Assembly (NCBI GenBank): GCA_004764695.1
Contig: SMSO01000008.1
Location: forward strand, 62,001 to 126,000
Direction: 5' to 3'
Source of the DNA: Schizochytrium sp. TIO01
Lineage: Eukaryota; Protista; Bigyra: Labyrinthulomycetes
Length of the DNA stretch: 64,000 bases
Below, piece by piece: positions 20,001 to 64,000 of this stretch (positions are counted from its first letter, which is position 1; each line of letters opens with the position of its first letter). Below the pieces are notes generated by a model. It was not told where the DNA came from, did no database searches, and worked only from the letters and a program-made list of their open reading frames with translations. The position numbers and the translations under genes were made by a program.

Positions 20001-21426
20001 CAAGCTCCACAAGGTCCACAAGCACAGTACACCTAAATCACTCAATTCATCCCTATTACCCTAAACAGTCACATGAACTTAGTTTACTCCAAGAGCTGCG
20101 ACTACCATTCCCCACGCACGCATTATCTCTGTTTACTTCTGGACAAAACTCCCCTCAAGGGCTCCTTCATACCTGTACCTGATCCTTCAATCAACCACGA
20201 CTCGCAACATTCCTGGAATTTTAATTTGGGGAGTCGGCACTTGTTCAAGCAGGAGCTATTGTAAATATTGGTTTACAAAAAGGACGAAACTCATGATCAT
20301 TAATCTATATCTAGAACAACCTTGACCTTATACATGCGTTATTTCACAGCATTCTTTTCGAAACTCTTTCCGTTGACTTCAAAATAAAATCGAGCAGATT
20401 ATTTTTTACAGCAACTCAAAGCGAAATGAAGCCTATGCAGACCCGTGTTGTGACGAATATTGAGCTAAATCAACCTATTCATCCCCTAGCTTTTAAATAA
20501 AAGTATGTTTACTGGCTTACTCCAAACAGGGCTCTCACTTAGCATTTTGGGATGAAATTTATATAGAAACCAGGACTACAAATATGGGTGAGTGGCCATA
20601 CTTCACACATTTTAACTATACTTTATACAGTTAAGGTCGCACCCAGTCTTTTCACTGAGATAACAGTTTTCACTCAACGCCAGGTCTTTACAAAATTAGC
20701 AAGGGGAATGAATGCATGGGCTAGCTTTCGCAGCACGAAAAGTGAGTCTCTTGTGGTGTTGGTTGTGGAAGATTATCAAAAAGCGTATCGTATGACCATT
20801 CGTTGATGTCTATTACAATCTCCCTCCTTTATATGGATTCTCTCCCGAACGAACACCCATAGTGTATCTCAAATATTAGCAGCCTCAGTGTTACTTATCT
20901 TTCATTGAAATTCAATTCTACAACGCCTCAAATTTGTCTTTCAGACCTGCATTCAATCAGTAACCTCCCAACTTTGGCCATAATCAAACCTGTATTGATA
21001 TTTTCATCACCCTTACTCTTAACAATTCTTGTTCATGAATTTTCTTCCTCTGGACGATTCGTACGTCGGTTGTGTCGAAAACGAAGCAGGATTAGTCAGT
21101 GAAACGGAAAGAGACGATGCGTGTAATCGCACCTCTTTGAGAAAACTAAGCTCAGCTAAGTAAATCAAGAAAATTATACGCAGGCAAAGAAGTTAGCGCC
21201 TGACCTCGCGGTAGTATCGCTGATGATTTTAGGTATCATACGAATTGGTCTTATTGATATGAGGCCAATAGCAGAGCACTTCTATGTACAGATCTGCGAT
21301 TCTCTTAGTGGTGCACTAACATGAAGTCTTTTTCTTTTAACTTGGAGAGATTTTCTTCTTTCAAGAAACTAGTCAAGAGGGATTTCTTAAACTCGAAAGG
21401 CGCGAAAAAAATTCCCAAAGTTTTTT

Positions 21427-22473
21427 TTAGTATGAGAGGGAAAGCCAGATACGATCATCAGGCAATTTTAAATATTGCAATAGCCTAATAATATAATCCA
21501 GATCAGTGACGGCTGCATCCGGCTCATTGTCTTCTACTAAAGAAGGCAGTGTATGCGCAGTAAAGGCCCTGCTTGCCGTGGTCGAGTCGGGCAGGTCTGC
21601 TTCATAGACGTACTTATGCTGGTCAGTGTCGAGGTAATAGTCCTTATTAAGGATAGCTTTGGTCGTAGGGTCCGACTTGACCTGGACATAAGTCAGCGCA
21701 GGGCTGTCCTTATTCTGCGGGATGCACGAAATATTCCCCTTCTTTGGATCGTAGGTATTGAGCCACACGTAATTCGAAGTGTTGTCCACTGTGCGGTAGA
21801 CATTAATGTATGTTCGCAGCGGCACATTTGAGGGCCCATTATCCACTGTGGTGTACATGACCATTTCCTGGTAAGCTACATTACCCAGCAGCGGCTCTCT
21901 TGCGAGTTCTCCGAGCTGTGCACACCGAGAAACCGCAACGGCGTTGCGAAAGCCTGTGAAGAGGCAAGTACTGCCTCGCTGGCTGTGCCTCTTGAAGTTA
22001 ATGCTCCTTCGGCGACTGCGAATGCGTACCTTGCCATTGGCCACGGGAGGAATTCCACCAATGAATCGCCAATCTACGCATGTTCGAAAACCTCCAGGTA
22101 GTTCTCCACGCCGAATGATCGTCTCAGGCCTCCAGGCAGCAGCATCCTGGTTGAAAGCGGCCAGCGTGAGTAAGTCCTTGCCGTCTGTAAGCGGGTAGTG
22201 GTAGTGTGTTCCATGCAAGTTGAGATTGTCCCAGTTCAACTGCGCCTTCGCTGCTTCCGGTCTACGATCAGGGGAGTAGCCCAGGCGATACTTTATAGCA
22301 TTACTGGTAGCCTTAGGGTCTGAAGGAATGGTAAAGTAGCCCGTGGTGGCGGAACAGAACATGGGCATGCTCCAGGTGCCATTAATAAGCGATTTCTCGC
22401 CGCCTAGGACATGTTTTACTTTGCTAAGTCGGTCCACTGCATTCTTCAGCGTTGTCGCAGTATCACACGTCAT
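21427..22473 (-). pseudogene. Probably truncated paralog of the N-terminal domain of 22798..26337
   Basis: Shares CxTTGYF, KYRLGYxPDRR, WRPETIxRRGELPGG, CVDWRFIGGIPP, REPLLGNxAYQ, RTYINVYRT. Similarity stops at ~21505, and the last ~25 codons lie in AT-rich DNA. Confidence 0.75.
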
Positions 22474-22797
22474 CTTGCCGTGTGCTTTTTTGTACTTGTT
22501 TTTGTTGGTTTATTACTATTCTTTTCTTATTCTTTCTCACACCAGAGATAAAAAAGATAGTTTACGAAGGAGATTTCGTTTTTTGCACCTTTACAGTTTT
22601 GTATATTTTTGTTTGTCTTTGTTTTTGTTTTTACAATTCTACCTTTCACCCCTTTTCTTATAAAGGGTTCGTTCTTATCTATGGATGGTATATTATTTTA
22701 TTTTGCAAGTGTAAGTTTTCTTCTTTTTGTTTTACTTTGTTTTGATTGTTTTGAAATCGCTAGTCTAAACCCCAACCCTCCCAAAAAACAGCAAAAA

Positions 22798-25700
22798 CTA
22801 ATGAACTCCTGTGTACTGCTTTGCAGCTGCGTCAGCCACAACGTGAACATCGCCAAGGATCAAGGTAGTGGATAGTGCAATGCCGATGATTCCCAGGCAA
22901 CCAATGAGGGTACCAATAAGGATGCGAGCAAGCAAGAGGTGGCGCGGATCTTGGAGCTTCTTGGGAACCACCTTGATAAGCACCACAATAAGAGGCACGA
23001 CAAGGAAGATCGTCACAATGAGAGGAACGAAGCTAAGTGCATTCAATCTCTCTGTATAGCTGCGGTTATCAGTTCCGCTATCATCAATTGAGGTCGAGGT
23101 GTCTCCCGTTTCAGGGATGGATGCAGTCGGCGTGGTGAAGTCCGTGCGCACTAGAACCTCCAGATCGTCGTTGTCTGTAGGGTAATACTCAGGGCAAACA
23201 TCAAGCAGAGCACAGAGCCCCGACTCATCGAGCTGCGCAAAGTTACAGAGGGTGTTCTCCAGGCAAGCATTTGCGCAGGCCTGCATTGTTTTCGCTCCTG
23301 AAACCACAGCGATGCTGTTTGTGTAACCCCTGTTCTCACAGAAGTGGCCAATGACTGCATTGAAACCTTTATAATCGCTTGCAGAAACGTTAGGCGCCGC
23401 GCCACGAGGAACGGGGCGCACGGTAATGAGATCGCAGGGCCCGCGCTGCGTCGGAGAGTAGGTCCCTGTGCAAACGCGGCACTCTTCTGTCTGTGCATTC
23501 CACGTTGCGTGCGAGCAATCGCCTGTGCACTTCTTCGCGCAATTGATAAGACTGTTTTGCTTGCTTGTAGTACCTCCCGAGGTGCACCCTGGCCCATTGA
23601 CGAGTCTGTAGCCAGAAGGAACCTTGATAAGGTTGCTGAAATCATTGATTCCCTTCATGGCTTTGGTCATGCAGACATCCTGGTAGTCCCCGTAGTACTT
23701 CTCGATGAGCTGCATGCTCGTAGACTGGGTTGCAATGGTGCTCTTACGTTGCAGCAAGGTGCTACCTGTATCGTCATTCTCTATATCGCAACTTGCATAG
23801 AAGTAGCCCTCAGTATCCTTGATATTCACGAAGTTGCACTCACCCGTGCACTTGCTCACTGCATCCACTTGATTGGTGACGGCCTCTTTCTTCAGAAGCT
23901 TGCCTGAGGCAGACCCACAGGTAGTATAACTGTAACTCACAAAGTCTGCTTCAGGATCTGCATTTGTTCTGGTCAAGGCGCGCGCGGCTGTATAGTTCGG
24001 CAGTAGTGGGGGCACCACAGAGGAGTCAATCGGATCACAAGGAGACCCCGCATTGCAGTGCTGGTCCTTTCCATTGCCTACGAATCCCGCTGTTTTACCT
24101 GAAGGATCGTAGTCCACCGTCTCAATGAGCCTATACTTGCTAGCACCACGCACTTCGTTTGTGTCTCCCATGAATTCGCCGCCATCTCGGGTAGCGTGAT
24201 CACCTGGAAGCTGGCAAGTACCATCATAAAAGTACTTTACTGCCATTCCACCGCCTCCCTTGCCGGTCTTGATGTTGTGATTCCAGCCCCCGAAGTCTCT
24301 TTCGAAGTTGTGCAGGCCGTGCCAGGCATGCAGCCACGGGATGCGGTACAGGAAGAAGCCTCTGTAAGTGTCTCCCGTTTGAAAGTGGCTGTTAGCAAGC
24401 ATAAAGAAGGACTGGTCTGGTGCTGTGGGGTGAAACATGTACCCCACAAGTGCGGGAGTGTGCTCAGAGGTGTAACCTGTGGCGTAGCTCTCCGCAAAGA
24501 CCGCTTTATGGAAGTCCTGCAGTACGTTACGCACAGCTAGGTCAGTTTTGCTTCCCGAACCGTCCATCAGGTACTCTGGGTAAAGGATTTTATTGGCCTC
24601 GTCTGCTTGAATGCCCAGCGTTTCCGCCATGGCTTCCCACAGCGAGGAAGATCCTCCAATCAGCTTGCTTCGCTTGATCATCATGGGACCTAAATTGTCC
24701 AGCATCAGCATGACAAACAGCATTGGGCTTGCGTAAGCCAGATCTCCCAAGGTGAAAACTGGCTGGTTGTGGTCCAGGTACATCCAGAACTGGTTCTGGC
24801 CCACAGTGCGGTCGATCACATCCACTCCAATAGCGTCAATGTTCATCGAGACTCCATTAAAGAAAGGTCTGTTCTTGGAAATGATCTTGCTGCCGAAGTA
24901 AGACTGCAATTCAGACAGTTTGTTCGTTTCGAAACTCGCTTGAAAGGGAAACCAGCTCTCTCCGTCGAAGCATTTCAGGTAGAGCAATGGGACACTCGTA
25001 TCCGTTCCGCAAAGGGTCTCGTCCTGCAGTTTGTAGCCGAGGATTTTCGCGTAGTCTGCATTGCCAGAGTCACGGAAACAAGATTCACCTCCGCAAATCA
25101 CCGTCTGTGAAGGTGCATTCTTGGTGGGAATGTACCTAGAGTCTACGTAAGGTTTCAAGTAAGGATCCACTTCGTACTCGCTGATGTAATAAGCAAGTGC
25201 AATGCCCCACTTGTTATTAGGTTCGCTCCAGTCAGGTGTAGTAGTAGTACTAGTCGTGGTCGAAGTAGAAGCGCTGCGGCCTACCTGCGTTTCTACGCCT
25301 GTTTTCAGTGAGAAGGCTCTTCCCGCAAGCGTGGACTTCATGAGCGGGTAGTCCCGATCGTCCATAAGCGCTGAGTCTTCGCTCGTGTAAGCAGACTCAT
25401 CAATGGCCGGCTCTAAGTCTGAAATCAGTGTGGGCCTTACATGAGCCACAAAGGCGCGATTCACCGAAGAAGAATCTGGTGCGTCCGATTGATAAACGTA
25501 GTTATGATCATCACTGGATAAAGCGTAGTCCTTATTCAAAACCTCTTTGGTTGTAGGGTCCGTCTTGACCTCGTAGAAGCTAACATTCGCCGTCTTGTTC
25601 TGTTTCACCGCCTGGCAAGTCTTAGTCTTTACATAATTGACGGTCCAAATGTAGTTGTCTCGATTATCCAGCGTGCGGTAGACATTGATGTAAGTTCGCG

Positions 25701-26337
25701 TTGGCACGCCTTTGATTGCATTCTTGAAATGCTGGTACATCACGGGTGCCTGATAAGCAATATTACCTAGCAAAGGTTCGCGAGAGAGCTCTCCGAGCTC
25801 TGCGCAGCGTGCAAGCGAGATAGAATTGCGCTCTCCCGTATACTCGCAGGTGCTTCCACACTGCGTGGCTGGTTTGTAATTGGTGAAGCGGCGTCTAGAC
25901 CGAATCAGCACCCTTCCATTGGCGCAAGGTGGAATTCCTCCAATGAATCTCCAGTCCACGCACTCTCTCATTCCTCCAGGCAGCTCGCCGCGCCGCAGAA
26001 TTGTCTCGGGTCTCCATGCTTCTATATCTTGTTTAAAGGCGGCCTGGGACAGAAGGTCTCGCATTTCGCCGAATGGAAAATGCAAATCAGGGTGATTGAA
26101 ATTGAGCCGCGTCCAATCCAGTTGGTTCGCAGAATTATCCTTGCGGCGATCCGGGGCGTAGCCTAATCGGTACTTCAGGATATCTGCAGTTCCTTTAAAA
26201 TAACCCGTGGTGGTGGCGCAGTACATCTTGAAGCCATACTTGCCTATAAGCATGTCTGCCAGAACATTATCTAGCGTCCAGTGCTGGGTCTTTTTCATGG
26301 CTGCGAGAGCATCTGCGATGCTCTTATCATCACACAT
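22798..26337 (-). CDS. Large Cys-rich membrane-anchored protein with PAN/apple-like repeats (putative virion surface or adhesion protein)
   Basis: 1179 aa. Three C-terminal Cys modules (CTGECNFV, CAKKCTGDCSHATW, CANACLENTLCNFA...C) fit PAN/apple spacing, followed by two hydrophobic helices. Confidence 0.75.
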   Translation of the reverse strand: MCDDKSIADALAAMKKTQHWTLDNVLADMLIGKYGFKMYCATTTGYFKGTADILKYRLGYAPDRRKDNSANQLDWTRLNFNHPDLHFPFGEMRDLLSQAAFKQDIEAWRPETILRRGELPGGMRECVDWRFIGGIPPCANGRVLIRSRRRFTNYKPATQCGSTCEYTGERNSISLARCAELGELSREPLLGNIAYQAPVMYQHFKNAIKGVPTRTYINVYRTLDNRDNYIWTVNYVKTKTCQAVKQNKTANVSFYEVKTDPTTKEVLNKDYALSSDDHNYVYQSDAPDSSSVNRAFVAHVRPTLISDLEPAIDESAYTSEDSALMDDRDYPLMKSTLAGRAFSLKTGVETQVGRSASTSTTTSTTTTPDWSEPNNKWGIALAYYISEYEVDPYLKPYVDSRYIPTKNAPSQTVICGGESCFRDSGNADYAKILGYKLQDETLCGTDTSVPLLYLKCFDGESWFPFQASFETNKLSELQSYFGSKIISKNRPFFNGVSMNIDAIGVDVIDRTVGQNQFWMYLDHNQPVFTLGDLAYASPMLFVMLMLDNLGPMMIKRSKLIGGSSSLWEAMAETLGIQADEANKILYPEYLMDGSGSKTDLAVRNVLQDFHKAVFAESYATGYTSEHTPALVGYMFHPTAPDQSFFMLANSHFQTGDTYRGFFLYRIPWLHAWHGLHNFERDFGGWNHNIKTGKGGGGMAVKYFYDGTCQLPGDHATRDGGEFMGDTNEVRGASKYRLIETVDYDPSGKTAGFVGNGKDQHCNAGSPCDPIDSSVVPPLLPNYTAARALTRTNADPEADFVSYSYTTCGSASGKLLKKEAVTNQVDAVSKCTGECNFVNIKDTEGYFYASCDIENDDTGSTLLQRKSTIATQSTSMQLIEKYYGDYQDVCMTKAMKGINDFSNLIKVPSGYRLVNGPGCTSGGTTSKQNSLINCAKKCTGDCSHATWNAQTEECRVCTGTYSPTQRGPCDLITVRPVPRGAAPNVSASDYKGFNAVIGHFCENRGYTNSIAVVSGAKTMQACANACLENTLCNFAQLDESGLCALLDVCPEYYPTDNDDLEVLVRTDFTTPTASIPETGDTSTSIDDSGTDNRSYTERLNALSFVPLIVTIFLVVPLIVVLIKVVPKKLQDPRHLLLARILIGTLIGCLGIIGIALSTTLILGDVHVVADAAAKQYTGVH

Positions 26338-26598
26338 TCTGCCTTTTGCGAGGATATACGATTAACGAGGAAGCAATTGAGGATGTGTAAAAATTCCCAC
26401 ACAAAAAAGGATGCCCTCCTGTGTTCGCTAAACGTTGCAAATTTTTTAGCTCAACTTAACAAGAGAAAGAAAAATTCTAGCAAATTATTTCTCGTTTAGC
26501 AGTCGGGAAACAAAAAATTGAATAAATAAATACAAGCACATACGAAAAAGCAAAAGCTAAAAGCAAAAAAAATCTAAAAGGGCAAGTGTGCTGCACCT

Positions 26599-27129
26599 AT
26601 GCAGGATATCGCTATTGATCGACTCCTTTCGCCGGTGACTCAGTTGCCTCGCCACCTGAGTTTTCTTCATGCATTTCTCATCATTTTGGGAGTGGCATTA
26701 ATTCTGATGGGTGCAATCAGACTCGCTACAAACACCAAGCCATGCGGAGGAGAGGCGGCCCGTGCTTATATTCAGAGAAGTCTTGAGAATTCCCGCGCAT
26801 CGGGCTCTTCTGCGCCCCGCATTGCCTCAGGCGTGACTTACACTGAGCGCGTGGCCACCGCTCGAGCCGCTGCAGACGCCGCAATCACCCCTCGCACAGT
26901 GGATGCTTCTTCAATGGCTCCTCAGTCTCTATCCTTTAACCCTACAGGAGCCGTGATTCTCGCAGATGCAGTCGCACCAGCTGTAGCCGCAGAGAGGTCC
27001 CGTAATCCTGATGAACGCACTTGTAAGGTAAACAAGTCTCTCAATGCTTTGTTTCTTGCTCTGGGTATATGTACAGTGCTAGCCGCAAGCATTGCAGGGC
27101 GTTACCTTTTCCCTAGGGATTACAACTGA
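26599..27129 (+). CDS. Hypothetical membrane protein with N- and C-terminal TM helices
   Basis: 176 aa; hydrophobic FLIILGVALILMGAI and LFLALGICTVLAASIAG, each flanked on the inner side by a Cys. Confidence 0.75.
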   Translation: MQDIAIDRLLSPVTQLPRHLSFLHAFLIILGVALILMGAIRLATNTKPCGGEAARAYIQRSLENSRASGSSAPRIASGVTYTERVATARAAADAAITPRTVDASSMAPQSLSFNPTGAVILADAVAPAVAAERSRNPDERTCKVNKSLNALFLALGICTVLAASIAGRYLFPRDYN

Positions 27130-27385
27130 TCATAGTATTGTTGGTGTTGTTGTTGTTATTGATGGATAAGAAAAGGGGAAATAAATGTACAGCAAGAAGA
27201 AGGAAAAAAATAAAAACCAAAAGGTCAAAACAAAAACAAAAACACATAAATGAAAATATAAATTGCGTTTATTACTTTTAGAATAAACAACACACGCAAC
27301 AGTAAAAGGGATACATACATACAGTTTTTTTCGCAACTGTGCTGCATCCTTCAAAAGTAGTAATTTACAAAAACTTCAATCCAGC

Positions 27386-28441
27386 ATGGCTGTAGGCGAA
27401 GGCTTCTTCGTAAGCGGATTCATATTTTTGGTCGCTGGAATTTCCTTATGCGGGGCTAGTGCCTCTGCAGGTTTCACAAAAACTGTCATTAATACTGCGG
27501 GAAGCAATGGTAGTTCCACTGCGACGACTGTAGCAGCAACACAGTCGGGCGGAAGTGATACGAATACTACTGTAACTTCGAGCGGCACCAATAGCACAGT
27601 CTCTGCAACGGCAACAGCAACAGCAACAGCAACGGCAACAGCAAGCTCCTCTGCTCCGAGCACCGCTGCTCCTACCGCAGCTGCTTCGCCTGATTGTGTT
27701 GCACAGTCAAGCTCAGTTTCCATTTGTACAACTGCATGGTATCGATTGATTGACAAGACTTACTACGATAATGGTAAGACTAACTACTATCTCGGTACCG
27801 ACTCCCTCCTTAATAACAATTATTATCCCGTGGGAACATTTCCTGCTGACCCTGATAATCCTCGAGATGATATGCAATGGAGCTTCAAGAAAAACTCATT
27901 GAATAGCACCAACATCTTTACAATTATGAACAAAGCCAATGCAGCGATGATATATGTAACGGAAGCCTACGAATCTGTAGAAGCGATGACCACTGCATCA
28001 ACTCCCATCGAGCTCAAACTGGTGAAAGCTGGACCAGGAAACGGCAGTTCAATCATAGGCACGTTTGAGCTCTATAACACTAACACAAATTACCTCATTT
28101 ACCGGACCCCTGCTGCCAACGATGGTCTAGTTTCGTGCTACAACGGCAACACTCCCAAGTACTCATCGGTGAATTCACAGTACTACATCGAGCACATTTC
28201 AGGTCCTTCGAGAGCATCTGGTACTGGAACATCTGGAACAACGAAAGAGATCAACGCGCATGCAATCACCCTTCTCATCGTAGGTCTGCTGTTCCTGATT
28301 TCGGGTGTGAGTCTCTTTGGCGTGGGAATTAAGCACAGGCGCGCGGCGAAGCGGGAGCGCACAGGCGGGTTACTTGCCCCTCAGGAGGGGCCGGAGCAGA
28401 TCGCACAGGTGCCAACACCCGTTGGCGAGGAGGAGAATTGA
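27386..28441 (+). CDS. Double-anchored membrane protein with S/T-rich stalk and beta-rich (possibly beta-trefoil) domain; paralog of 55484..56575
   Basis: N-terminal TM, TATATAT stalk, SPDC.....S.CTTA.YRL.D.TY, YIEHISG..RA, then C-terminal TM and basic tail. Confidence 0.85.
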   Translation: MAVGEGFFVSGFIFLVAGISLCGASASAGFTKTVINTAGSNGSSTATTVAATQSGGSDTNTTVTSSGTNSTVSATATATATATATASSSAPSTAAPTAAASPDCVAQSSSVSICTTAWYRLIDKTYYDNGKTNYYLGTDSLLNNNYYPVGTFPADPDNPRDDMQWSFKKNSLNSTNIFTIMNKANAAMIYVTEAYESVEAMTTASTPIELKLVKAGPGNGSSIIGTFELYNTNTNYLIYRTPAANDGLVSCYNGNTPKYSSVNSQYYIEHISGPSRASGTGTSGTTKEINAHAITLLIVGLLFLISGVSLFGVGIKHRRAAKRERTGGLLAPQEGPEQIAQVPTPVGEEEN

Positions 28442-28750
28442 TTGATTGACAATCCAGCATCCAAGGAAGGAGGATGGCCAGCCCCGCTGCCACTTCGACT
28501 TACGAGTCTCTGCACCAGAGGTTGCTCGAAATCGGGATGAGGCGCTCTTTGCCACCCTCTGCCGCGACACCTGGGACGCGCGAAAGCAGCGCACGGAAGC
28601 GAAAGCGGGCACCCAGCCCGGCCGGAACCATCGTCTCACAGACAGTCAGTAGAGCTATTTCTTCTTCTTCTTCTTCTTGTTCTTCTTGTTCCTCTTCCTC
28701 TCTTTCAACGAGAAGAACGGGAGAGTGGAACAGGTTCAACGAGAGAAAGG

Positions 28751-38457: not shown

Positions 38458-38475
38458 AAGAAAGCCAAGCACGGC

Positions 38476-52622: not shown

Positions 52623-52624
52623 AA

Positions 52625-55483: not shown

Positions 55484-56575
55484 TTATTCAACAGAGGATG
55501 GTTCTTGTGAATCGATTGTTGGGTCGGCCTGGACAGCAGCAGCGATCTCGCGTGCTTTGTGTTGTTTTCGAGCTTTCCTGAGTAGAATTATTGCAGAGAT
55601 TAAGAGCAAGGGGCAGAGACAGAGGCATAGGATTGACGCTACTTTCTTTGAATTTACTGTCGGACTGCCTGCACTTGTCCCTCCGAAGTCGTAAGCCCTG
55701 AGAGACCCTGAGATATGCTCAATGTACCAAATGTTATTGGCTACTGTTGTTGTACCAATATAAAGATCGTCACTCTTTTCAGTGCTTCGGAAAATTTGCA
55801 TTCCATTGCTTTGCTGATACATACTGAAGCCGCCAAGCGTGGTGATTCCTGAAGAACTAGGCGCGCCAGGGTAATTTACACCAGAAGAATACACAAACCT
55901 AATATTTCCAGCAGATTGGGGGGAACTGAAAATGTATGCACCCGTCCTTGGCTGTTTGTAAATCGATCCGACATTGAAAGTAGCCCCGCTAACCTTATTC
56001 ACCAACATAAAGACATCCTTATTCGAACTTGTATCAGTGGTACCCTCAAAATGCCAAAGCTCCTCGTCTTTCGGTGTTGTCAGGCTCCCTGACATGGTGG
56101 TGTATTTTGATCCGTCGTAAGCAAAATACATGTTTCTCCCACTGCCTGCGTAGGTAACATCTCTCAGTCTGTAATAAGCGGTAGTGCAGAAGGAGACCGA
56201 TGTGTTTGGCTGTTGAATACAATCAGGTGAAGGCGCAGCTGTGGGCTTCGGCGTCGTCGTAGTAGTTGAAGTACTAGAAGTTACAGTGGATTGGGTGTTC
56301 CCTGATTGCGTGGTTGGCGATACGGTGTTTCCTGATTGAGTGGCCGGTGCAGTAGTAGACGAAGAAGAGTCAGAAGGCGCGGAAGAGGCGGAATCAACAG
56401 AGGATGTGGTTGCTGTTGCTGTCGCTGTCGCTGTTGCTGTTGGTGAGTCGCTCACAGTACCACCAGTACTACTACTTCCATTTGACTGCTTCAATGAGAG
56501 ACCTCCATATACACCGAAGGAAACACTGAGAATCAAACAAAGTATACCAGCGGAAGATAAAACTTTTACGCCCAT
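55484..56575 (-). CDS. Double-anchored membrane protein; paralog of 27386..28441
   Basis: Same architecture and motifs (TATATAT, PSPDC, CTTAYYRLRD.TY, WYIEHISG.LRA). Confidence 0.85.
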   Translation of the reverse strand: MGVKVLSSAGILCLILSVSFGVYGGLSLKQSNGSSSTGGTVSDSPTATATATATATTSSVDSASSAPSDSSSSTTAPATQSGNTVSPTTQSGNTQSTVTSSTSTTTTTPKPTAAPSPDCIQQPNTSVSFCTTAYYRLRDVTYAGSGRNMYFAYDGSKYTTMSGSLTTPKDEELWHFEGTTDTSSNKDVFMLVNKVSGATFNVGSIYKQPRTGAYIFSSPQSAGNIRFVYSSGVNYPGAPSSSGITTLGGFSMYQQSNGMQIFRSTEKSDDLYIGTTTVANNIWYIEHISGSLRAYDFGGTSAGSPTVNSKKVASILCLCLCPLLLISAIILLRKARKQHKAREIAAAVQADPTIDSQEPSSVE

Positions 56576-56745
56576 ATTCTTAAATGGATTTGATTTTTTT
56601 TAATTTTACCTTTTCAATTAAATCCCAAAATAATTTGATATGAAGAGAAGAAAAGGGAGGTATTTATATTTTATACTTAAAGTTTTAAAAGGAAACTGAG
56701 AAATAAAAGAGAGAAAAAGGGGTTCTGCTTGTTCTTGTTCTTCTA

Positions 56746-57672
56746 GTGATGTCTCGACTGCTCTTTGCTCGCCCTCTCTCACTGGAGTGGTTGCACAAGC
56801 AGTCTGCTCGCGAGGCGAAGGGGTACAAGCGAGAGGATGCCGAGAAACTTGCTCTTATTTACCTCTCGAAGAGTGACGACTCTGCCTTTGTGTACAGCCT
56901 TGACGAAGTTTGGAAACTTGCGGGTTACAGTAGAAAGGACATTGCTAAACGAGCTATCTTCGGTTCGAAGTTACAGAGTTGTACAGGGGAAGGGCTTAAA
57001 AGGGGCGAAGAAGTAAAAATTTTTAAATACTATCACGAGCACGAAAATAAGAAAGGAATAACAAAAACCAAAACAGAAGTAAAAAACGAAGAAACGAAGA
57101 ATGCCCCACCACCACCAAGGAAGCGCGTGCGCAGGCAGCACGGCGGTCACAATCGCGAGGATATCCGTATGACTCGCTTCGGGCTTGTGAAGTTCCTTCT
57201 CTCTGGGCGGACTCCGGCCTCCACCGCACTTGCACTCTTCTTAGTGAAACTTGGTTGTGCCCACCTTCGAGCTTTGTCTGATCCGGAGGTAGTGCTACCT
57301 AGCAGTTACTACGAGGAACATGCAGATGCCCATGCAGAATTATTGAGTGACTTAGCTACGTGTCAAGCGGCGACAGGAGCGAAGACTTTGCACGACCAGA
57401 CTGCGGATAGACTTGCGCTAGAGCATGGAGGTAGGCGCGAGGTTGTACTCTCTAGTGGCTCGCGTCCGGATGTCGTGACGGATGCTTATGTCATTGAAGT
57501 GAAGCCTTCGCGGGAGTGGATGCATGGCCTCGGACAGGCCCAGGCTTACGCAGAGGAGACTGGCTTGGAGCCTTACCTCTTCCTGATTGGCCAGCCTAGC
57601 GAGCTAGCGAAAACTGTCTGCAGATCGAAGGGCGTAAAGCTGGGATTCTGTTTGCCTTCGCGGCCTTTTTAA
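56746..57672 (+). CDS. MSV199/antirepressor-like DNA-binding domain + PD-(D/E)XK nuclease-like domain
   Basis: LDEVWKLAGYSRKDIAKR and HGGHNREDIRMT..; C-terminus RPDVVTDAYVIEVK...WMHGLGQAQAY is homologous to the C-terminus of 50335..51270. Confidence 0.8.
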   Translation: MMSRLLFARPLSLEWLHKQSAREAKGYKREDAEKLALIYLSKSDDSAFVYSLDEVWKLAGYSRKDIAKRAIFGSKLQSCTGEGLKRGEEVKIFKYYHEHENKKGITKTKTEVKNEETKNAPPPPRKRVRRQHGGHNREDIRMTRFGLVKFLLSGRTPASTALALFLVKLGCAHLRALSDPEVVLPSSYYEEHADAHAELLSDLATCQAATGAKTLHDQTADRLALEHGGRREVVLSSGSRPDVVTDAYVIEVKPSREWMHGLGQAQAYAEETGLEPYLFLIGQPSELAKTVCRSKGVKLGFCLPSRPF

Positions 57673-58664
57673 CAGAAAGCACTGTCATTCTCGTCGAGTT
57701 GGAGCCCGCAAATGCGTCTCCCTCCATTGCTAAACTCTTCGCAAGAATAAAGACCTTCTCTCTCCGCGACTTCGAGCATGAAATCCTGGATAGACTTGAA
57801 GACAGGCCCGTGCGCATCCACTCCAGCTTTGCGGTAATTGGCGTCCCCTGAGTGTGCGATCTCATGCACGAGAACCCGCATGGTGGAGTTCACGGGATCA
57901 AAATCGTTCGCGTTTTTGCGCAAACAGAGCTCAAACAGCATTCCTTTGCCACTGTTGGCACCCACAGTGGTCCCACCTGGTTGAAAAAGTTCTACAAGGA
58001 GCAGAGGCCGATTGAGGTGCTTCTTGAGGATCCTCTTCATATTTTCTGTGACCTCTCTGCCGTCCACGCTGTTCAAAGGTTTGCCTTCCTTTACAAGGTC
58101 GTCGATGCGTGCAATCAAAATCATGGCGCGCCTCTGGAGCTCTGCGAGATGGTTAGCAGCTTGCTCGTCTCCAGGGACCCCTGCAGCTACGAAATAACCT
58201 TGGTCGTCTAGATCTGCGGTCTTCTTCAGCAATCTCGCTTTGCCGCTCTTGGCCTCGCCCATATTTTTTCTCACGAGAGACACAGCTTTGGTCCCTCCAG
58301 CTTCAACCACATTTTTCCCTATACTCACTTCTTCTCCTTCTTTGACCTGATCTCTCGTAAGGTTCTGTGGTTCTGCACTGACAGAAATTATTGAGGTGGG
58401 CGAGGCTAGATCAGAGTAATTGTCCGTCCAAGTTCTGTAAGCAACTACAATAGCAAGTAGCACAAGCATTGCGAAAATGATTGTGGCTCCGAAACGGTAT
58501 CCGCTGTCTCCTCCGTCGCCAGGCCCGAGGTGTTGCGACGTCATTCTTCTTCTTCTCTTTGGTTTTCTTTTTTTTCGAGGTGGTGGTGATGAATGCAACC
58601 CCCTTTCAAATTTGATGATTTGATATAATAATAATAATAATATAACAATGAAGAAAAGAACCAA
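57669..58664 (-). CDS. WLM-like zinc metallopeptidase of the giant-virus type, membrane-anchored
   Basis: AANHLAEL, NSGKG...LCLR, NSTMRVLVHEIAH, HGPVF, ICGL. Likely start is the ATG at ~58544 (MTSQH). Confidence 0.85.
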   Translation of the reverse strand: MVLFFIVILLLLLYQIIKFERGLHSSPPPRKKRKPKRRRRMTSQHLGPGDGGDSGYRFGATIIFAMLVLLAIVVAYRTWTDNYSDLASPTSIISVSAEPQNLTRDQVKEGEEVSIGKNVVEAGGTKAVSLVRKNMGEAKSGKARLLKKTADLDDQGYFVAAGVPGDEQAANHLAELQRRAMILIARIDDLVKEGKPLNSVDGREVTENMKRILKKHLNRPLLLVELFQPGGTTVGANSGKGMLFELCLRKNANDFDPVNSTMRVLVHEIAHSGDANYRKAGVDAHGPVFKSIQDFMLEVAEREGLYSCEEFSNGGRRICGLQLDENDSAFC

Positions 58665-58718
58665 AAAAACTGTATTTTAGTATTCGATTTAAAATAAATA
58701 AATCAAGCAACCACAGCA

Positions 58719-59933
58719 ATGAACGCCCAGCGCGCTAATGTAGAGGTTGGTCAGATGGATTTGAATCCCTTCAATCCCAACGAAGCTCGCCAAATGGGGC
58801 TCGTCTCCACACAGTTCGGTGTTTTTTCCACCCTGTGCCTGGCAGCCTCGGCTCTGGTGATCTATTCTATTGTCCATGCGGCGAGGTTTCAAACACAAGG
58901 AGGTCTGGAACCAACCACTTCTCTTATTTCTAGCTCTTCGGGTCCCTCAGATGAAACCTCTAGTAGTACACTAGCTGCTTCGGAGACCACCACACCCACT
59001 CTAAGTGAGGGCAGGGAGCGAGCAGGTCTCATTTTACTTGCCACGGGGGCTTCTGCAATGTCGATTGTGCTCATTGTCATATCATTTTTTGCATTTGAAG
59101 CGCGCTCCGGCGTCGGCTCATCTCTGCACGTGCTGGCCTCCTTCTACGTAGCTTTTGCGTTGCTGTTCATGATTGGTACAATAGTCTACTCTCGTCAGCT
59201 CGTCGAGACTGGCTACCCAAGTGGAGTGATGGGAAAGTTTTATGCCTTTGCAAGTGCCGTAATGCTTGTTCTAATTGTCGCGACAGGCGCCTTCATGCGA
59301 AAGAGAATCGAGGAGTCTGCTTTGTGGCTGGCTGTTGTTGCTTTTGTGATAGGCGCCACGGCCTTTGGTATTGAATGGCCTTGGTGGAGTGCCTTTATTG
59401 TAGGTCTTTTTGCGGGTCTATCTGCTGCGCTTTGGGTTGGTCTTTCACCCGTGTTAAGTCTTACTGTGGGTTGCGCTTCGGCCGCTACGAGTTTGCTTGT
59501 AAAATTGCTCGATGACGAGCATAAAGGAACCAATCGTGGCAGCATGATTGGCCTCATTGCTGGCTTCTTTGGTGTCTGCGCAATGCTTCTAGCAGGGATA
59601 GCCATTGTAGCGCGCCGCAGGCAAGATCCATTCGGCTTTTTTCAGACTACACAGGACCAGTTTACGACGCCGCCAGACTTTGAGTACCACAGCAAGTCAA
59701 ATGAAGTTCCTATCATTGAGAGGGGATTTGAAAATTACTTCGATGCTTTAGACAGAACTCACCGCCAGCTCCGCCAGCAGCACAAGGCGAGAGAGAAAGC
59801 AGAGGAAAAGGATGAAGGTCACGCCGACCACCACAGCGACGCCGGCGCAGAGCAAGCAGCGGGAGAAGAAGGGGACAATCACCACGATCGTTTCTGGCAC
59901 ACTGACGATCAAGCAGGTACACACGTTGTTTAA
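58719..59933 (+). CDS. Polytopic membrane protein
   Basis: 404 aa with about 8 hydrophobic segments and a charged His-rich tail. Confidence 0.8.
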   Translation: MNAQRANVEVGQMDLNPFNPNEARQMGLVSTQFGVFSTLCLAASALVIYSIVHAARFQTQGGLEPTTSLISSSSGPSDETSSSTLAASETTTPTLSEGRERAGLILLATGASAMSIVLIVISFFAFEARSGVGSSLHVLASFYVAFALLFMIGTIVYSRQLVETGYPSGVMGKFYAFASAVMLVLIVATGAFMRKRIEESALWLAVVAFVIGATAFGIEWPWWSAFIVGLFAGLSAALWVGLSPVLSLTVGCASAATSLLVKLLDDEHKGTNRGSMIGLIAGFFGVCAMLLAGIAIVARRRQDPFGFFQTTQDQFTTPPDFEYHSKSNEVPIIERGFENYFDALDRTHRQLRQQHKAREKAEEKDEGHADHHSDAGAEQAAGEEGDNHHDRFWHTDDQAGTHVV

Positions 59934-60124
59934 ATAAAAGAGATTACCTTCTGTGAGGGAGGGAGTGAGTGAACAGAAAAAATAATATTTTTTTCTGGGC
60001 TTTAGAGAAAATAGGAAATTTTAATAGAGAAAACCAAAAGACCTTGTTGTTCTATTAGAAATCAACGTAGTAAAGTATATTTAAAAAAGAAAAGAACGAA
60101 AACAAAAAAAAACAATCATCAAAA

Positions 60125-60841
60125 ATGGATCAGGTCATGGATGGTTTGAATGACTTTGATCAGGTTTACCCTAGCATTGCAAGGGAAAAGAAGCTCCGCG
60201 AGCGCAAAGAGCTCTTGGAGCAGCTACTCGAAGCCTTGGACCGGCAGACAGTTGAAAATCTCCGTGTTTCCGCAACTGGTGAAATTGTGAGGACAAAAGA
60301 AGAGACCGAGCATTTGAATCAACAACAAAAAGCTCCAACTTCGTCACCTCGACCAAAAGGAGCGAGGCTCGTGAATATGGACGACCTGCCTAAAGAAGGA
60401 GAGCTAAACGAATTACTCTTCGGGCGACCAGGTAAAAACATTGATTCCCCTGAGAATATTCCCACAGAGAAGCCGGCAATTGAATTCCAAACAGCTCGCC
60501 GAGTTGCAGATGGAAAGGCTTTTCACCGGCTCTACATGAACAGATTCCCGTGGGAGTTTCTGATCATCATTGGAATGCTTTCCTTCGCGTGCTTCTTTCT
60601 CTATCTTCGCATGCGCAGACTCTCTTCGGCTGTGCTGCAAAAGCGGCGCAGTTTGCGTAGAAAGAAATCCTCGGTGCGTCAGGAATCGCAGTTGGATTCC
60701 ATTGATCTGAGAGAAATGATCCGGGGTGAAATTAGAGCCGCTCTAGCTGTCCAAACGGCAAAACATGAGCCAGGAGCAGCGGTGACTACTACTACCAGAG
60801 ACGCAATGCCCTTATTGCCGCCTATCCGCGTATCTTCTTAA
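60125..60841 (+). CDS. Hypothetical single-TM protein
   Basis: 238 aa; N-terminal coiled coil; TM FLIIIGMLSFACFFLYL followed by a basic patch. Confidence 0.75.
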   Translation: MDQVMDGLNDFDQVYPSIAREKKLRERKELLEQLLEALDRQTVENLRVSATGEIVRTKEETEHLNQQQKAPTSSPRPKGARLVNMDDLPKEGELNELLFGRPGKNIDSPENIPTEKPAIEFQTARRVADGKAFHRLYMNRFPWEFLIIIGMLSFACFFLYLRMRRLSSAVLQKRRSLRRKKSSVRQESQLDSIDLREMIRGEIRAALAVQTAKHEPGAAVTTTTRDAMPLLPPIRVSS

Positions 60842-63563
60842 TTTTCTTGGGCCGTGTGATGCCTCGGATATCTCGGATTTCTAGATCATTTCCTCGGCGC
60901 TTCCGCAAGCGCGGAACAACTTGTCTCCTCTGCTTTAACTTGTTTTGGTGCTCCGCGCGACGTTTTTCGTCGGCCTGTTTCACTTGCCTCTCTTTGCGAT
61001 CAGCGGTTCGGTCTTCAACGGGTTCTCTTGCGAGCTCGTGTAGCAGGGGCTGCTCTTTCTCTTTTTGAGGTTTTTTGGGTTGCTGCTGTTGCCTTATTAT
61101 TGGTTCGACCGGAGCACGTGGCTTAGTGTGAACAGGTTGTGGCTGTTGTTGCCTCTGCCCTGGTGTATCACTTCGATGTATGTTTTGGTAACTTCGTACT
61201 TGCTGACTGATTCTCGCAATCTCTTCGTTGGTCATAGGCTTTGGTGCTAGACTCTGCTGCTGCTGTTGGTTGTGATAATGCTGCCGAGGTAACTGTGACT
61301 GTTGGTGATAAAATTGCTGTGGTTGTTTGCGGGGATACTGCTGCTGCTGCTGCTGGTTGTGGTAATGCTGCCGGGTCTGAGGCGGTTGCTGTGGCGGCTG
61401 TCGGTGATAAGGGGGTAGAGCATGAGGTTGCTGCTGTTGCTGCTGCTGCTACCGCCCTGAAGATCCCGTGTAATTCATTCTTCGCAACCCATTCGACGTA
61501 TCATCTTGCTTTATCGCTCTATTTCGAATTTGCAGAAACCGCCTTGTCGCTTCCTCTTTCGATAGGCTCGTTTCTGCTTGTCTGGAATATTGAGATCCGT
61601 TTCTTCGCTGTGGGGAAGGGGTTCTCTTTTTGCTTCTATTTGGATCTCTCTGTTCCGCCCTGCCCACTCGAGAATGCTCATTTCCGCTAACCTCGTTCTG
61701 GCGAGACTTTGATGATAAAGTTGAAGCACCTGCAATACCTAAAGAAGCAAGCAAACCTCGGGATGCGGTAGCACCTGTTGCTGCTCCTTCTTGGAAATTC
61801 TGGTGTTTCCTGTTACCTGAATAGCCGTTGTCGCCCTGTTCGCGCTCGCCTACTTCACGAATGTTTTCCTGCCCCCTTCTTAATGCAGCTTGTTTCTTCT
61901 GCTCCTTGGCGTAATGCTTAGCTCCCTGGTCGACCTTCTTTTGAAACTCAGCGAGGAAGTTGCGAGTCGAAGTACCGGCTTTGTCTACGGGCCCCCCTTG
62001 TCCCATGACAGAAGAAATTCCTTGGCCAACTGTACTCAGAATATCCGCTGCCTGGCGACTTCCTTGTTTTGCGTAGCCAGATAGCTTATCAACGCCTCGA
62101 GCAAGATCGCTTGCAGAGACAACATAATGCTTGCCGCGTGTATCCCTAAACCGGAAGTACCCGGATTGGTCGTTCTTGTGTACTACCGCCTCCTTGCCAA
62201 AGTCAATTCCGGAGCCAGGGAAACTGAATTGACTGCGATCCTTAAAGGATTTTACATCGACGAACTCTACCGGACTTCCGTCCCATTTCGCACCTGATGG
62301 GGAGAGTAAACTATTGAAACCATTCAACGCTCTCGATCCTTGGGTATACATCTCACCAGCTAAACCATTTGATATAGCTTTGGTCCCCTTTGATACCTTT
62401 TTCACCACTCCAAGAGCAAGCCCACCCCCGATAATGTTACCAAGTGCATCTACATTCGTATTCCACTGAGAGGTTCCGTTTCCAAAGAAGGGATTGTTGA
62501 GATTGTTCTCTAACTTCAGCACACCAGTGTTCAGTTCATGTCTCGCGGGATATATGTAAGGCATCATATCATACTGATGAGGTTGTTGTTGCTGTATGAG
62601 TTTATCCAAGCCTTTCATGCTGTCTGGGTAAGCGGATCCTTTGATACTTGGAAGCTCAGGACCGTTGACAGGATAAACCGATGGTCCTCCAGTAACAGAA
62701 TCCGGAAGCTTGATTCTAGGCAACTTGGGATCTTGCAAAAGGTGGCGCTGTATTCTCAGTTGGCCCACAGTTGGTGCAGGAGGCCGCTCAGGGCCATTTC
62801 GCGCATAAACAGAGGGAGCAGGCGGTGTTTGCATTGGAGGCCTAAATCTATTTCGTTCTGGGTGCTGCAAGCGCTCCCTTTGTTCCCTTAATTGATCTGC
62901 TGTGGGTAAAGGGGGTCTTTCAGGACCGAACACTCTCTGATTCTGCGCTTGCGGCACCCCTAACAAACTCTGCTGTTGCTCTTGTACCCGTTGCGACTGT
63001 GGTCGGTCCAGGGCCTCTGGGCGGTTAGGTATTTCCCTTTGTGTATTACCACGATTTCTATTGTTTCTGTAATTGTGAATGAGCCCTGCGAGGGATGCAT
63101 AGAGATACTTTAGAAGGTTTCCAAAGTGTGAGACGCCGTTGCGAAAGACCCCAAAGAACACAAAGAAAATGAATGTTAGACCGAAGACCAGAAGCTGTAA
63201 GCCCGCAATTCTGTTATTCTGAATGATGAGCACCAAGCCTGCAAGACAGGCCAGGACGCACATAAGCAAACCAATTAAGTAAACCACAGCGATATAGTCC
63301 TGGACCCTCCTGATTTTACTGTACCACATTCTCACTTCCAGAAACGCCCAGGTTACAGCGCTACAAGCAATCAAGCTGATGAGAAAAATCTCGATGCACC
63401 GCCTTAGAACGTTCGCACTTGTGCTATTCTGCTGCCTTTGCTCTGCATTGCCCGCCCTTTCGTAGAAAGCAAAGACGAAAATCAGTGCCACAGTAACAAG
63501 AAGCAGGGCAAACGAGCGAGTGCGCAATTCATTGGTCCTCCTTACGAGGAAACTCTGATCCAT
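60822..63563 (-). pseudogene. Large membrane protein (4 N-terminal TMs, P/Q-rich tail) interrupted near 61400-61500
   Basis: ORF 61449..63563 stops at a TAG heading a CAG run. A Q-rich frame (PYHRQPPQQ...QQQQSLAPKP) then runs in frame into ORF 60822..61235. Confidence 0.6.
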
Positions 63564-63653
63564 CCTTTACTTGTTTATTTTCTTTTATATTCTTCTCTTT
63601 GTTTTGTTGTCGTCGCGTCGTTGCCGTTTGTTGACCCCTTTTATCTTACACGT

Positions 63654-64000
63654 CTATAAAAAATTACTTTTTTCGTGTTGCGGATCTATCTGGTGGTGAT
63701 GATATTGTTTCGCTTTCAGAAGTCGGGCCCAAAATACAATAATGAGAACCACTTTCAGTAAGGCCATGAAGATTCCCCACACAATGACGAAACCTACTAT
63801 CCTGACGCCCAGGATCCTCGATTTGGAAAAGATACAACAGATTACACCCGTCGCAAAAAGCAAGAGAGTGGCTAAACATAAGTAGCGCTGAGAGATGCTA
63901 AGATTTACTTGCTGCTCAGGGATATACTCCAAACCAGTGTAAACTCGGAACCAGAACACACCAGCAGAGAGCCAGGAAAAGACAAGTCCGTAAATGAGAA
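63654..64000 (-). CDS. Hydrophobic membrane protein, 5'-partial
   Basis: Frame stays open to the window edge (LIYGLVFSWLSAGVFWFR...); several TM segments. Confidence 0.65.
   Translation of the reverse strand, partial: LIYGLVFSWLSAGVFWFRVYTGLEYIPEQQVNLSISQRYLCLATLLLFATGVICCIFSKSRILGVRIVGFVIVWGIFMALLKVVLIIVFWARLLKAKQYHHHQIDPQHEKSNFL

What the first reader, a model, noticed from the sequence alone, without database searches (positions are those of the whole stretch)
21400..64000. Integrated giant-virus-like genome segment in a protist chromosome
Seen: a sharp change in coding density and composition at ~21.5 kb, followed by more than 42 kb of intronless genes. Known: the gene families are typical of large dsDNA viruses, and endogenous mirusvirus-like elements are reported in thraustochytrids. 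Inference: this is such an element, but its lineage cannot be fixed here because no capsid, polB or packaging gene was recognised.
Basis: partly seen in the sequence, partly recalled or inferred. Interest (0 to 1): 0.7.

Follow-up and report, generated by a model that had tools for sequence, protein, structure and literature searches.

The report
Giant-virus insert on one chromosome copy
More than 42 kb of tightly packed virus-type genes start at one exact point in the chromosome of what is likely an oil-producing marine protist, and three independent sequencing studies hold both this filled site and a likely empty version of it, so this is likely a giant virus of the mimivirus/poxvirus phylum, not the mirusvirus first suspected, sitting in one chromosome copy.

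Summary
In detail: ORFs of 100 aa or more cover 6% of 1-21400 and 81% of the rest; GC rises from 39.8% to 48.7%. The junction is real and lies at 21502/21503. Contigs from 3 of 4 laid runs fork there into the element and a second path at about 1:1 depth, and the fourth run bridges it. The second path's 51-nt length fits an empty allele with an 8-9 bp direct repeat (inference). The element is not AurliV-1 or AurliV-2. It encodes an intact-motif AEP/UL9-like primase-helicase, a WLM protease and an OTU-like protease; the same trio occurs in an IMG/VR contig with a double-jelly-roll capsid and in skiaviruses/'Ariadnavirales'. Its primase-helicase, however, is rejected from the SmDNAV clade (AU p=0.0026). 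It shares a near-identical gene pair with the mirusvirus AurliV-1. No capsid, ATPase, polymerase or integrase lies in the window, so lineage and intactness stay open. Verdict: a hemizygous nucleocytovirus-type endogenous element of an unplaced lineage, not found in the papers searched.

The parts
2..1129 (-). Host membrane-protein gene (open at the window edge), not part of the element
   Evidence: 376-codon open frame; no family hit better than E 0.16
1130..21493 (.). Host non-coding flank, about 20 kb, no rDNA
   Evidence: Uniform k-mer make-up up to the junction; no Rfam hit; no pseudogene of element genes by tblastn
21494..21502 (+). TAATCCAGA, inferred 8-9 bp direct repeat (target-site duplication or crossover core), predicted to recur at the far end
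   Evidence: Fork after 21502 with a 51-nt side contig in X3, X5 and X13; 51 nt arises from a 9-bp repeat in 24 of 40 and from an 8-bp repeat in 8 of 40 random simulations, and in 0 of 40 for 0, 2 or 6 bp
21503..64000 (.). Integrated viral element (runs off the window; at least 42.5 kb)
   Evidence: 82% coding, median gap 225 bp; element contigs at 0.51-0.75 of flank depth
21427..22473 (-). ORFan that crosses the junction; paralog of the N-terminal domain of 22798-26337; its last 22 codons come from host DNA
   Evidence: 51% identity over aa 3-318, similarity ends at 21520; no homolog found
22798..26337 (-). 1179-aa likely surface protein: shared ORFan domain, PAN-like cysteine modules, C-terminal membrane helices
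   Evidence: PAN_1 E 0.0076, below cut-off; sequence
27386..28441 (+). Ser/Thr-rich membrane protein, paralog of 55484-56575
   Evidence: tblastn 28-29% identity, E 1e-11 and 1e-14
31698..33647 (+). Membrane-anchored likely zinc peptidase (HELGH motif; family call recalled)
   Evidence: Sequence; no Pfam hit
33779..35119 (-). Coiled coil plus HNH-like nuclease (Crinkler-type layout recalled); paralog of 52904-54337
   Evidence: 31% identity over 405 aa; HNH_2 only E 0.14 on the paralog
38551..40539 (+). Coiled coil plus kinase-like protein
   Evidence: APH E 3e-4; Bud32/LanKC kinase hits below cut-off
40646..41128 (-). Fic-domain frame without a start codon (likely broken)
   Evidence: Pfam Fic 25.3 bits, cut-off 24; stop-to-stop frame
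41233..42348 (-). Tandem pair of 151/152-aa ORFans
   Evidence: 77% aa and 83% nt identity
42653..43315 (+). OTU-like cysteine protease
   Evidence: Pfam OTU E 0.023 over the whole profile; homolog in G001, E 4.3e-12, with GGGDCLF and HYxV kept
43763..44677 (+). Likely membrane-anchored glycosyltransferase (motif reading recalled, not confirmed)
   Evidence: Sequence; no library hit
44637..49640 (-). 1667-aa AEP primase fused to a UL9-like SF2 helicase
   Evidence: Herpes_ori_bp E 6.6e-20; D203, S281, H283, D378, R390, GTGKT and DE motifs conserved; near-full-length fold matches to mimivirid and marseillevirus origin-binding proteins
50155..51270 (+). SmDNAV BDC16459-family protein with a NucS-like nuclease C-terminus; counterpart of AurliV-1 ORF 604
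   Evidence: 147 of 163 C-terminal residues identical, counted by eye; family description
51472..52622 (+). Frame-split BDC16459/KilA-like gene; counterpart of AurliV-1 ORF 753
   Evidence: Two frames meet near 51810-51830; AurliV-1 row
52904..54337 (+). Coiled coil plus HNH-like nuclease between two copies of a 66-bp repeat
   Evidence: 52550-52615 vs 54432-54497, 97% identical
56749..57672 (+). DNA-binding-type N-terminus plus the same NucS-like nuclease domain as 50155-51270
   Evidence: 40% identity over 86 aa to 50155-51270; REase-fold E 0.005; matches the BCU09076 layout described (inference)
57669..58544 (-). Membrane-anchored WLM metalloprotease; transcribed
   Evidence: Pfam WLM above cut-off; 99% identical to transcriptome protein P0007; 37% over its full length to the G001 homolog, E 6.9e-48
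58719..63563 (.). Cluster of ORFan membrane and low-complexity proteins (404, 238, 137 and 704 aa)
   Evidence: no family hit above cut-off

Best explanation
This is a chromosomal insertion of virus-type genes beginning at 21503, likely a giant virus of the phylum Nucleocytoviricota (skiavirus-like gene kit, unplaced lineage), likely present on one of two chromosome copies in a thraustochytrid host and predicted to be bounded by an 8-9 bp direct repeat. Shown: the gene-dense block, the exact junction, a second path at the junction at about 1:1 depth in three studies, the primase-helicase/WLM/OTU trio, and one gene in a transcriptome. Inferred mechanism: a circular, nucleus-dependent viral genome that persisted in the host, as skiaviruses do, recombined once with the chromosome at the shared 9-mer TAATCCAGA, by a site-specific recombinase outside the window or by microhomology repair (about 0.55; a DDE integrase about 0.3). 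That would duplicate the 9-mer, open the circle at the end of ORF 21427-22473 and leave that gene reading 22 codons into host DNA. The insert has since been inherited with the chromosome, is partly transcribed, shows early decay, and has swapped a nuclease/KilA-like gene pair with the co-resident mirusvirus AurliV-1.
For: Junction: the fork lies after 21502 in 3 of 4 laid runs (X3, X5, X13; different studies and organism codes). Side-path share is 0.48, 0.49 and 0.45; element/flank depth is 0.63, 0.75 and 0.51. X15 has one 2449-nt contig across the junction. Element contigs run unbranched for 8579, 1341 and 4894 nt from the junction; in simulation an excised circle would cut them at 51 nt and a terminal-repeat layout would give two long contigs. 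The side path's 21 nt occur nowhere in the window. 14 of 24 listed runs, from 6 studies, hold 65-92% of the words of 17000-26000, which needs both sides (one may be the source). Lineage: WLM, Herpes_ori_bp and OTU are named core genes of skiaviruses/'Ariadnavirales'. G001, cited by Latimer et al. for skiavirus gene hits, shares exactly these three genes with the window and encodes an NCLDV capsid, YqaJ and PCNA. The window WLM scores 158 bits against G001 and 20-28 bits against two other viral contigs. The top named structural hits of the primase-helicase model are NCLDV proteins. No terminal repeat or non-coding end: the element starts inside an ORF.
Against: No capsid, A32 ATPase, VLTF3, polymerase or integrase in 42.5 kb. 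The primase-helicase is a long branch outside the SmDNAV clade and does not group with G001 either, so the trio may be a mosaic. Collier et al. report no NCLDV-like capsid in A. limacinum (the sentence may refer only to CE1 and LE-Chr15). The far end and the repeat copy were not seen; the 9-bp figure rests on one contig length. Depths are whole-contig means. X5's flank is one unbranched 3995-nt contig, so its two supposed alleles are identical there, which an old heterozygous insertion would not necessarily predict. Host ploidy was not established (one search found nothing). Only 3 of the 30 window proteins compared have a convincing homolog in G001.
Confidence: 0.68

Rival explanations
1. Capsid-less mobile element or truncated relic: the insert is real but encodes no virion; it is a plasmid- or transposon-like replicon (primase-helicase plus cargo) or a remnant of a larger virus.
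For: No morphogenesis hallmark in 42.5 kb; no NCLDV capsid reported for A. limacinum; a broken Fic frame, a split KilA-like gene, and an 8-nt duplication in two runs; 8-9 bp duplications are typical of some DDE transposons (recalled).
Against: WLM, OTU and many membrane proteins are virion-type genes; in G001 the capsid gene lies within 5 kb of WLM and OTU but 19 kb from the primase-helicase, so gene order is loose; 82% coding density and intact catalytic motifs argue against long decay.
Confidence: 0.15
2. It is an endogenous mirusvirus (Soporavirales-like) that picked up nucleocytovirus genes.
For: Two genes are close counterparts of adjacent AurliV-1 ORFs 604 and 753; AurliV-1 also has a Fic protein; thraustochytrids carry integrated mirusviruses.
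Against: Neither AurliV table lists an origin-binding helicase, WLM or OTU; 4 of 6 motif searches found nothing, and the other two hit a Fic protein and an unrelated protein; the neighbours of ORFs 604/753 are absent here and the pair's order is swapped; that family is also in SmDNAV; GC and flanks differ from AurliV-2.
Confidence: 0.1
3. The left 'gene desert' is a two-copy repeat (long terminal repeat of the element or a segmental duplication), so the fork marks two loci, not filled and empty alleles.
For: It predicts the same 2:1:1 depths; Punuivirus has 10.8 and 14.8 kb terminal inverted repeats; X5 shows no heterozygous site in 4 kb of flank.
Against: Simulation gives two long contigs, not a 51-nt one; flank composition matches the DNA beside the host gene, not the element's spacers.
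Confidence: 0.05
4. Assembly chimera joining a co-cultured episomal virus to a host contig.
For: All long-read skiavirus genomes described are circular episomes.
Against: The same junction appears in short-read contigs of four studies, one of which bridges it with more than 900 nt on each side; no circle join is seen.
Confidence: 0.02

Closest known systems
Skiaviruses / 'Ariadnavirales' (SmDNAV and relatives; Latimer et al. 10.64898/2026.07.28.741200; Yutin et al. 10.64898/2026.08.29.747986)
   Same: Thraustochytrid host; AEP-UL9 primase-helicase with intact motifs, WLM, OTU, BDC16459-family and NucS-like nuclease genes, likely glycosyltransferase; no RNA or DNA polymerase seen; gene exchange with mirusviruses.
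   Different: Chromosomal rather than episomal or lytic (the word 'integrat' does not occur in Latimer's main text; Yutin's abstract says 'integrated or co-sequenced'); primase-helicase rejected from the SmDNAV clade; capsid not seen.
IMGVR_UViG_3300020185_000043 (G001, 67 kb nucleocytovirus contig)
   Same: Best IMG/VR match for the primase-helicase, WLM and OTU; carries an NCLDV capsid gene.
   Different: Only 27-37% identical, no synteny, no other shared gene; the helicases do not group together.
AurliV-1 and AurliV-2 (A. limacinum mirusviruses; PMC12606086, 10.1101/2023.06.15.545109)
   Same: Same kind of host; AurliV-2 is chromosomal; AurliV-1 shares the ORF 604/753 pair at about 90% identity in the stretch counted.
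   Different: HK97-capsid viruses with a stand-alone primase; AurliV-2 has 41.6% GC and lies between rDNA sets; neither lists UL9-like helicase, WLM or OTU.
Ectocarpus phaeovirus EVEs (PMC13236599)
   Same: Hemizygous nucleocytovirus insert with a duplicated core, explained by crossover of a circular genome.
   Different: 2-bp CC core, conserved non-coding ends and a tyrosine recombinase beside the end; here 8-9 bp, the edge lies in a coding sequence and no recombinase was found in the window.
Punuivirus of Chlamydomonas (10.1101/2024.09.03.611062)
   Same: Giant endogenous virus with a short direct repeat at a precise site.
   Different: 6-bp duplication and 10-15 kb terminal inverted repeats; neither fits here.

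Membership tests
Giant endogenous viral element | Contiguous with host chromosomal DNA | tested here: met
   Junction adjacency in X3, X5, X13 and a bridging contig in X15
Giant endogenous viral element | Gene-dense block of viral-type and orphan genes unlike the host flank | tested here: met
   81-82% coding vs 6%; 2 of 30 proteins above a Pfam cut-off, both viral-type
Nucleocytoviricota | Double-jelly-roll capsid, A32 ATPase, VLTF3 | tested here: inconclusive
   None in the 42.5 kb seen; the element runs off the window and no genome is held
Nucleocytoviricota | AEP primase fused to a helicase (here the UL9-like SF2 type of mimivirus R8 / ASFV F1055L) | tested here: met
   the type also occurs in malacoherpesviruses and some phages, so it is not exclusive
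Skiavirales / Ariadnavirales | Core genes WLM, Herpes_ori_bp and OTU | tested here: met
   (OTU below Pfam cut-off); core lists
Skiavirales / Ariadnavirales | Primase-helicase inside the SmDNAV clade | tested here: not met
   Outside the 100/100 clade of BDC16681, CAK9034970 and P0068; AU p=0.0026; long branch and only three reference rows
Skiavirales / Ariadnavirales | Placement in the MCP-A32-VLTF3 tree | not testable with these tools
   Marker genes are not in the window
Skiavirales / Ariadnavirales | No RNA polymerase, topoisomerase II or (mostly) PolB | tested here: inconclusive
   None in 42.5 kb; the rest is unseen
Mirusviricota | HK97 capsid, triplex, portal, terminase | tested here: inconclusive
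   None recognised; no mirusvirus-specific profiles were available
AurliV-1 / AurliV-2 | Gene content, GC and rDNA-flanked site of the described elements | tested here: not met
Mriyaviricetes | 35-45 kb genome that includes capsid, ATPase and HUH endonuclease | tested here: not met
   42.5 kb pass without any of these recognised; definition

The most novel reading that the evidence does not exclude
A full-length, still inducible provirus of an undescribed family- or order-level nucleocytovirus lineage lies on one chromosome copy in many Aurantiochytrium-like laboratory strains. It integrated by a route not yet reported for giant viruses (8-9 bp core at the end of a gene, no terminal repeats), and a diverged primase-helicase fragment (P0098, 80% identical) hints at a second copy or relative in the same host. 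The model mirusvirus host would then carry viruses of both realms that trade genes.
Probability: 0.25. Interest if true: 0.82.

Novelty: new variant of a known kind. Interest (0 to 1): 0.62.

Why it matters
Aurantiochytrium is the laboratory model for mirusviruses and an industrial DHA producer, and the papers read describe two viral elements in A. limacinum, both mirusviruses. A third, nucleocytovirus-type element fixed at one allele would be the first base-exact integration site found here for a skiavirus-like virus. It gives a ready test of how giant viruses without a known integrase enter chromosomes: filled and empty alleles sit in the same cells, so excision and loss can be followed by PCR. 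The gene pair shared with AurliV-1 is a concrete, recent case of the cross-realm exchange that Latimer et al. propose. Virion and proteomic work in this host may also have assigned particles or peptides without knowing of this element.

Tried and rejected
No own genome is held, so the far end could not be read. Rfam at both thresholds found no rDNA or 5S. 0 of 10 window proteins are in the protein collection by exact look-up. Single-protein scans of IMG/VR and of JGI metagenomes gave no confirmed relative; the side-path 21-mer is absent from JGI metagenomes. Among the first 43 IMG/VR loci no window protein other than the primase-helicase had a tblastn hit. The single-sequence fold of the primase region failed (pLDDT 33.7) and was not used. 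ESM Atlas gave only scores of 0.82 or less (RHS/TcdB-like names, judged chance) for the junction ORFan and no hit for 29216-30094; the longer-protein search for the ORFan found none. A PDB sequence search with the OTU protein alone gave unrelated weak hits; the two-row profile gave weak hits (E 0.13-0.39), four of five to viral L-protein fragments. The Medvedeva supplements hold none of the five Pfam terms tried and one file was unreadable, so how often mirusviruses carry UL9-like, WLM or OTU genes stays untested. 56749-57672 has no match in G001 (four other handles not held). No holder is on record as RNA; X15 is only guessed to be RNA, so its contig is used for contiguity, not as proof of transcription. 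Four look-ups of earlier findings returned nothing. My first guess, plain skiavirus membership, was lowered. An early note that the AurliV-1 pair is a simple cassette was corrected: the order is swapped.
Full report
Observation. ORFs of at least 100 aa cover 5.8% of 1-21400 and 81.0% of 21401-64000, GC is 39.8% against 48.7%, and the best trinucleotide change-point is 21500. The left part holds one host-type membrane-protein gene at 2-1129 and about 20 kb of non-coding DNA with no Rfam match at either threshold. Its k-mer make-up is uniform up to the junction and differs from the spacers between the element's genes.

Host. No genome is held for the window. The host is inferred to be Aurantiochytrium or a close thraustochytrid, for three reasons. 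Two genes are close counterparts of AurliV-1 genes (below). The 14 runs that hold most of the junction region have 63-97 million letters of contigs, 13 of them 63-69 million, near the ~62 Mb reported for A. limacinum. The WLM protein is 99% identical to P0007, a transcriptome protein named MMETSP0960 by its source; its printed taxon id 87120 resolves to a fungus, while A. limacinum is 87102, so I read it as a digit swap (inference; that these libraries are A. limacinum is also recalled).

The junction. Of 24 runs listed, 14 from 6 studies hold 65-92% of the words of 17000-26000, which needs both sides of the boundary; one may be the window's source. Four runs from four studies were laid on 19520-22460. 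In X3, X5 and X13 the flank contig ends at 21502, and two contigs start with its last 30 bases: the element (depth 124.8, 11.6, 51.2; lengths 8579, 1341, 4894 nt) and a 51-nt contig with the same 21 new bases in all three (depth 117.4, 11.0, 41.3). Flank depth is 197.4, 15.5 and 99.7. These three overlap the flank by 30 bases only, below the tool's bridging rule; X15 has one 2449-nt contig that does bridge the site and shows no fork. The 21 bases are not in the window. In a toy graph on random sequence (k=31, recalled for Logan and matching the 30-base overlaps), a filled plus an empty allele gives a 51-nt side contig in 24 of 40 draws for a 9-bp direct repeat, 8 of 40 for 8 bp, 6 of 40 for 10 bp, and 0 of 40 for 0, 2 or 6 bp. 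An excised circle would cut the element contig to 51 nt, and a terminal-repeat layout gives two long contigs. I therefore infer an insertion of more than 42.5 kb on one allele, bounded by about 9 bp (21494-21502, TAATCCAGA), with no abundant circle. Limits: contig depths are means, rare circles would be dropped, ploidy is not established, and X5's flank shows no heterozygous site over 3995 nt.

The edge lies in a gene. ORF 21427-22473 is 51% identical to the N-terminal domain of its 1179-aa neighbour up to 21520, and its last 22 codons come from the flank. There is no non-coding terminal repeat. This fits a single crossover of a circular genome at a 9-bp core better than a transposase acting on terminal repeats. 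Known giant-virus insertions differ: a 2-bp CC core with a tyrosine recombinase in Ectocarpus, a 6-bp duplication with 10.8 and 14.8 kb inverted repeats in Punuivirus, and subtelomeric rDNA recombination for AurliV-2. No integrase was recognised in the window, so the enzyme is unknown.

Gene content. Of 30 proteins scanned, 2 pass a Pfam cut-off: Herpes_ori_bp and WLM; a start-less Fic frame passes too. The 1667-aa protein keeps AEP motifs and SF2 motifs in a 50-row alignment. Its model (mean pLDDT 67.6) matches mimivirid and marseillevirus origin-binding proteins over about 1000 columns, at TM-scores near 0.3, and HSV-1 UL9 over the helicase. 42653-43315 is an OTU-like protease. Latimer et al. 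list WLM and Herpes_ori_bp among 17 skiavirus core genes; Yutin et al. add OTU, the AEP-UL9 fusion, the BDC16459 family and NucS-like paralogs. The best IMG/VR locus for the helicase, G001, is a contig that Latimer et al. cite for skiavirus hits. It shares exactly the helicase (E 2e-29), WLM (E 8e-49) and OTU (E 4e-13) with the 30 window proteins and encodes an NCLDV capsid, YqaJ and a weak PCNA match.

Against simple membership. The best of 1.84 billion representatives are only 31-34% identical over the helicase domain, apart from two short fragments at 80-85%. In a 40-row tree (chosen from 156 rows to cover the nearest clades and an outgroup) the window protein is the longest branch, outside the SmDNAV/CAK9034970/P0068 clade and outside the 26-row clade that holds it; the AU test rejects joining them (p=0.0026). 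With G001 added (32 rows) the two do not group. Long-branch error is possible and only three skiavirus-clade rows were available. So it works like a skiavirus but should not be filed as one.

Not the known mirusviruses. AurliV-2 has 41.6% GC and rDNA on both sides. The AurliV-1 and -2 tables have no 'origin', 'WLM', 'Wss1' or 'OTU' entry and carry a stand-alone primase (cells are cut at 400 characters). AurliV-1 ORFs 604 and 753 are adjacent and match 50155-51270 and 51472-52622 (147 of 163 C-terminal residues identical for the first, counted by eye), but in swapped order and with other neighbours; both have SmDNAV BDC16459 as top hit. This is best read as recent gene exchange; its direction is unknown.

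State of the element. The element differs from the window by only 1-2 substitutions or one 8-nt duplication in 958 bp across four runs, so the insertion is shared and fairly young. Signs of decay are a frame split near 51820 (possibly a sequencing error; not checked), the start-less Fic frame and the 8-nt duplication at 21539 in X13 and X15. P0007 shows that at least WLM is transcribed. Collier et al. found no NCLDV-like capsid (scope unclear), and the one passage seen of Gallot-Lavallee and Blanc lists a single marker for the A. limacinum transcriptome, so a capsid-less or silent element remains possible.

Novelty. Giant endogenous viruses are known, including hemizygous ones. Eight library searches showed no report of an integrated nucleocytovirus-type element in Aurantiochytrium. 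Yutin's abstract mentions SmDNAV homologs 'integrated or co-sequenced' in labyrinthulomycetes, and preprint supplements could not be seen, so the locus may be tabulated there; the Current Biology version of Collier et al. was not read. What I saw of each paper: Collier preprint parts 1-3 of 4 plus passages; Chung et al. parts 1-2 of 9, passages, two supplement parts and term searches; Latimer parts 1-4 of 6 plus passages; Yutin 2026 parts 1-3 of 4; passages only of the mriyavirus preprint, PMC12768974 (plus a supplement term search), PMC13236599, the Punuivirus preprint, PMC10827195, PMC5294986 and PMC12911909.

Verdict. A real, precisely bounded, likely hemizygous nucleocytovirus-type insertion of an unplaced lineage: a new variant of a known kind, interest 0.62.

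Noticed in passing
window 52550-52615 and 54432-54497: A 66-bp copy (97% identical) of the 3' end of the KilA-like gene lies on the far side of the HNH-like gene 52904-54337, as if that gene had moved in as a unit with a long duplication.
   Followed up: partly
window 21532-21539: Runs X13 and X15 carry an 8-nt duplication that shifts the frame near the end of the junction ORF; it could be a transposon footprint or slippage.
   Followed up: no
window 15880-17390: A diverged tandem duplication of about 730-810 bp (73-84% identical pieces) with a (CCTAA)3 run at 17291-17305, the reverse of the A. limacinum telomere unit; perhaps a decayed subtelomeric repeat.
   Followed up: partly
P0098 and P0050: Two 50-53 aa fragments are 80-85% identical to the N-terminus of the primase-helicase, one from a transcriptome record and one from a JGI contig, hinting at a second copy or close relative of this element.
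   Followed up: no
window 20792-20920 (X13): A two-allele bubble in the flank with 6 substitutions and a 4-nt deletion in 125 nt, each at about half depth, the best hint here that the host is diploid.
   Followed up: partly
window 30024-30079, 41694-41722, 42352-42399, 14825-14867: (AAAC)n/(GTTT)n microsatellites occur in both flank and element; in the element they sit just upstream of start codons or in an ORF's 3' end.
   Followed up: no
window 60822-61500: A Gln-rich minus-strand ORF continues upstream in another frame (61171-61500); a frameshift or a small intron was not tested.
   Followed up: no
L048:4971-6803 (G001): The A32-like ATPase gene of G001 appears split by an inserted opposite-strand ORF with zinc-finger/HNH-like features.
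   Followed up: no
AurliV-2 ORF 16: The unannotated 805-aa ORF near the start of AurliV-2 has motifs that look like a tyrosine recombinase (recalled pattern, not tested), a candidate integrase for that element.
   Followed up: no
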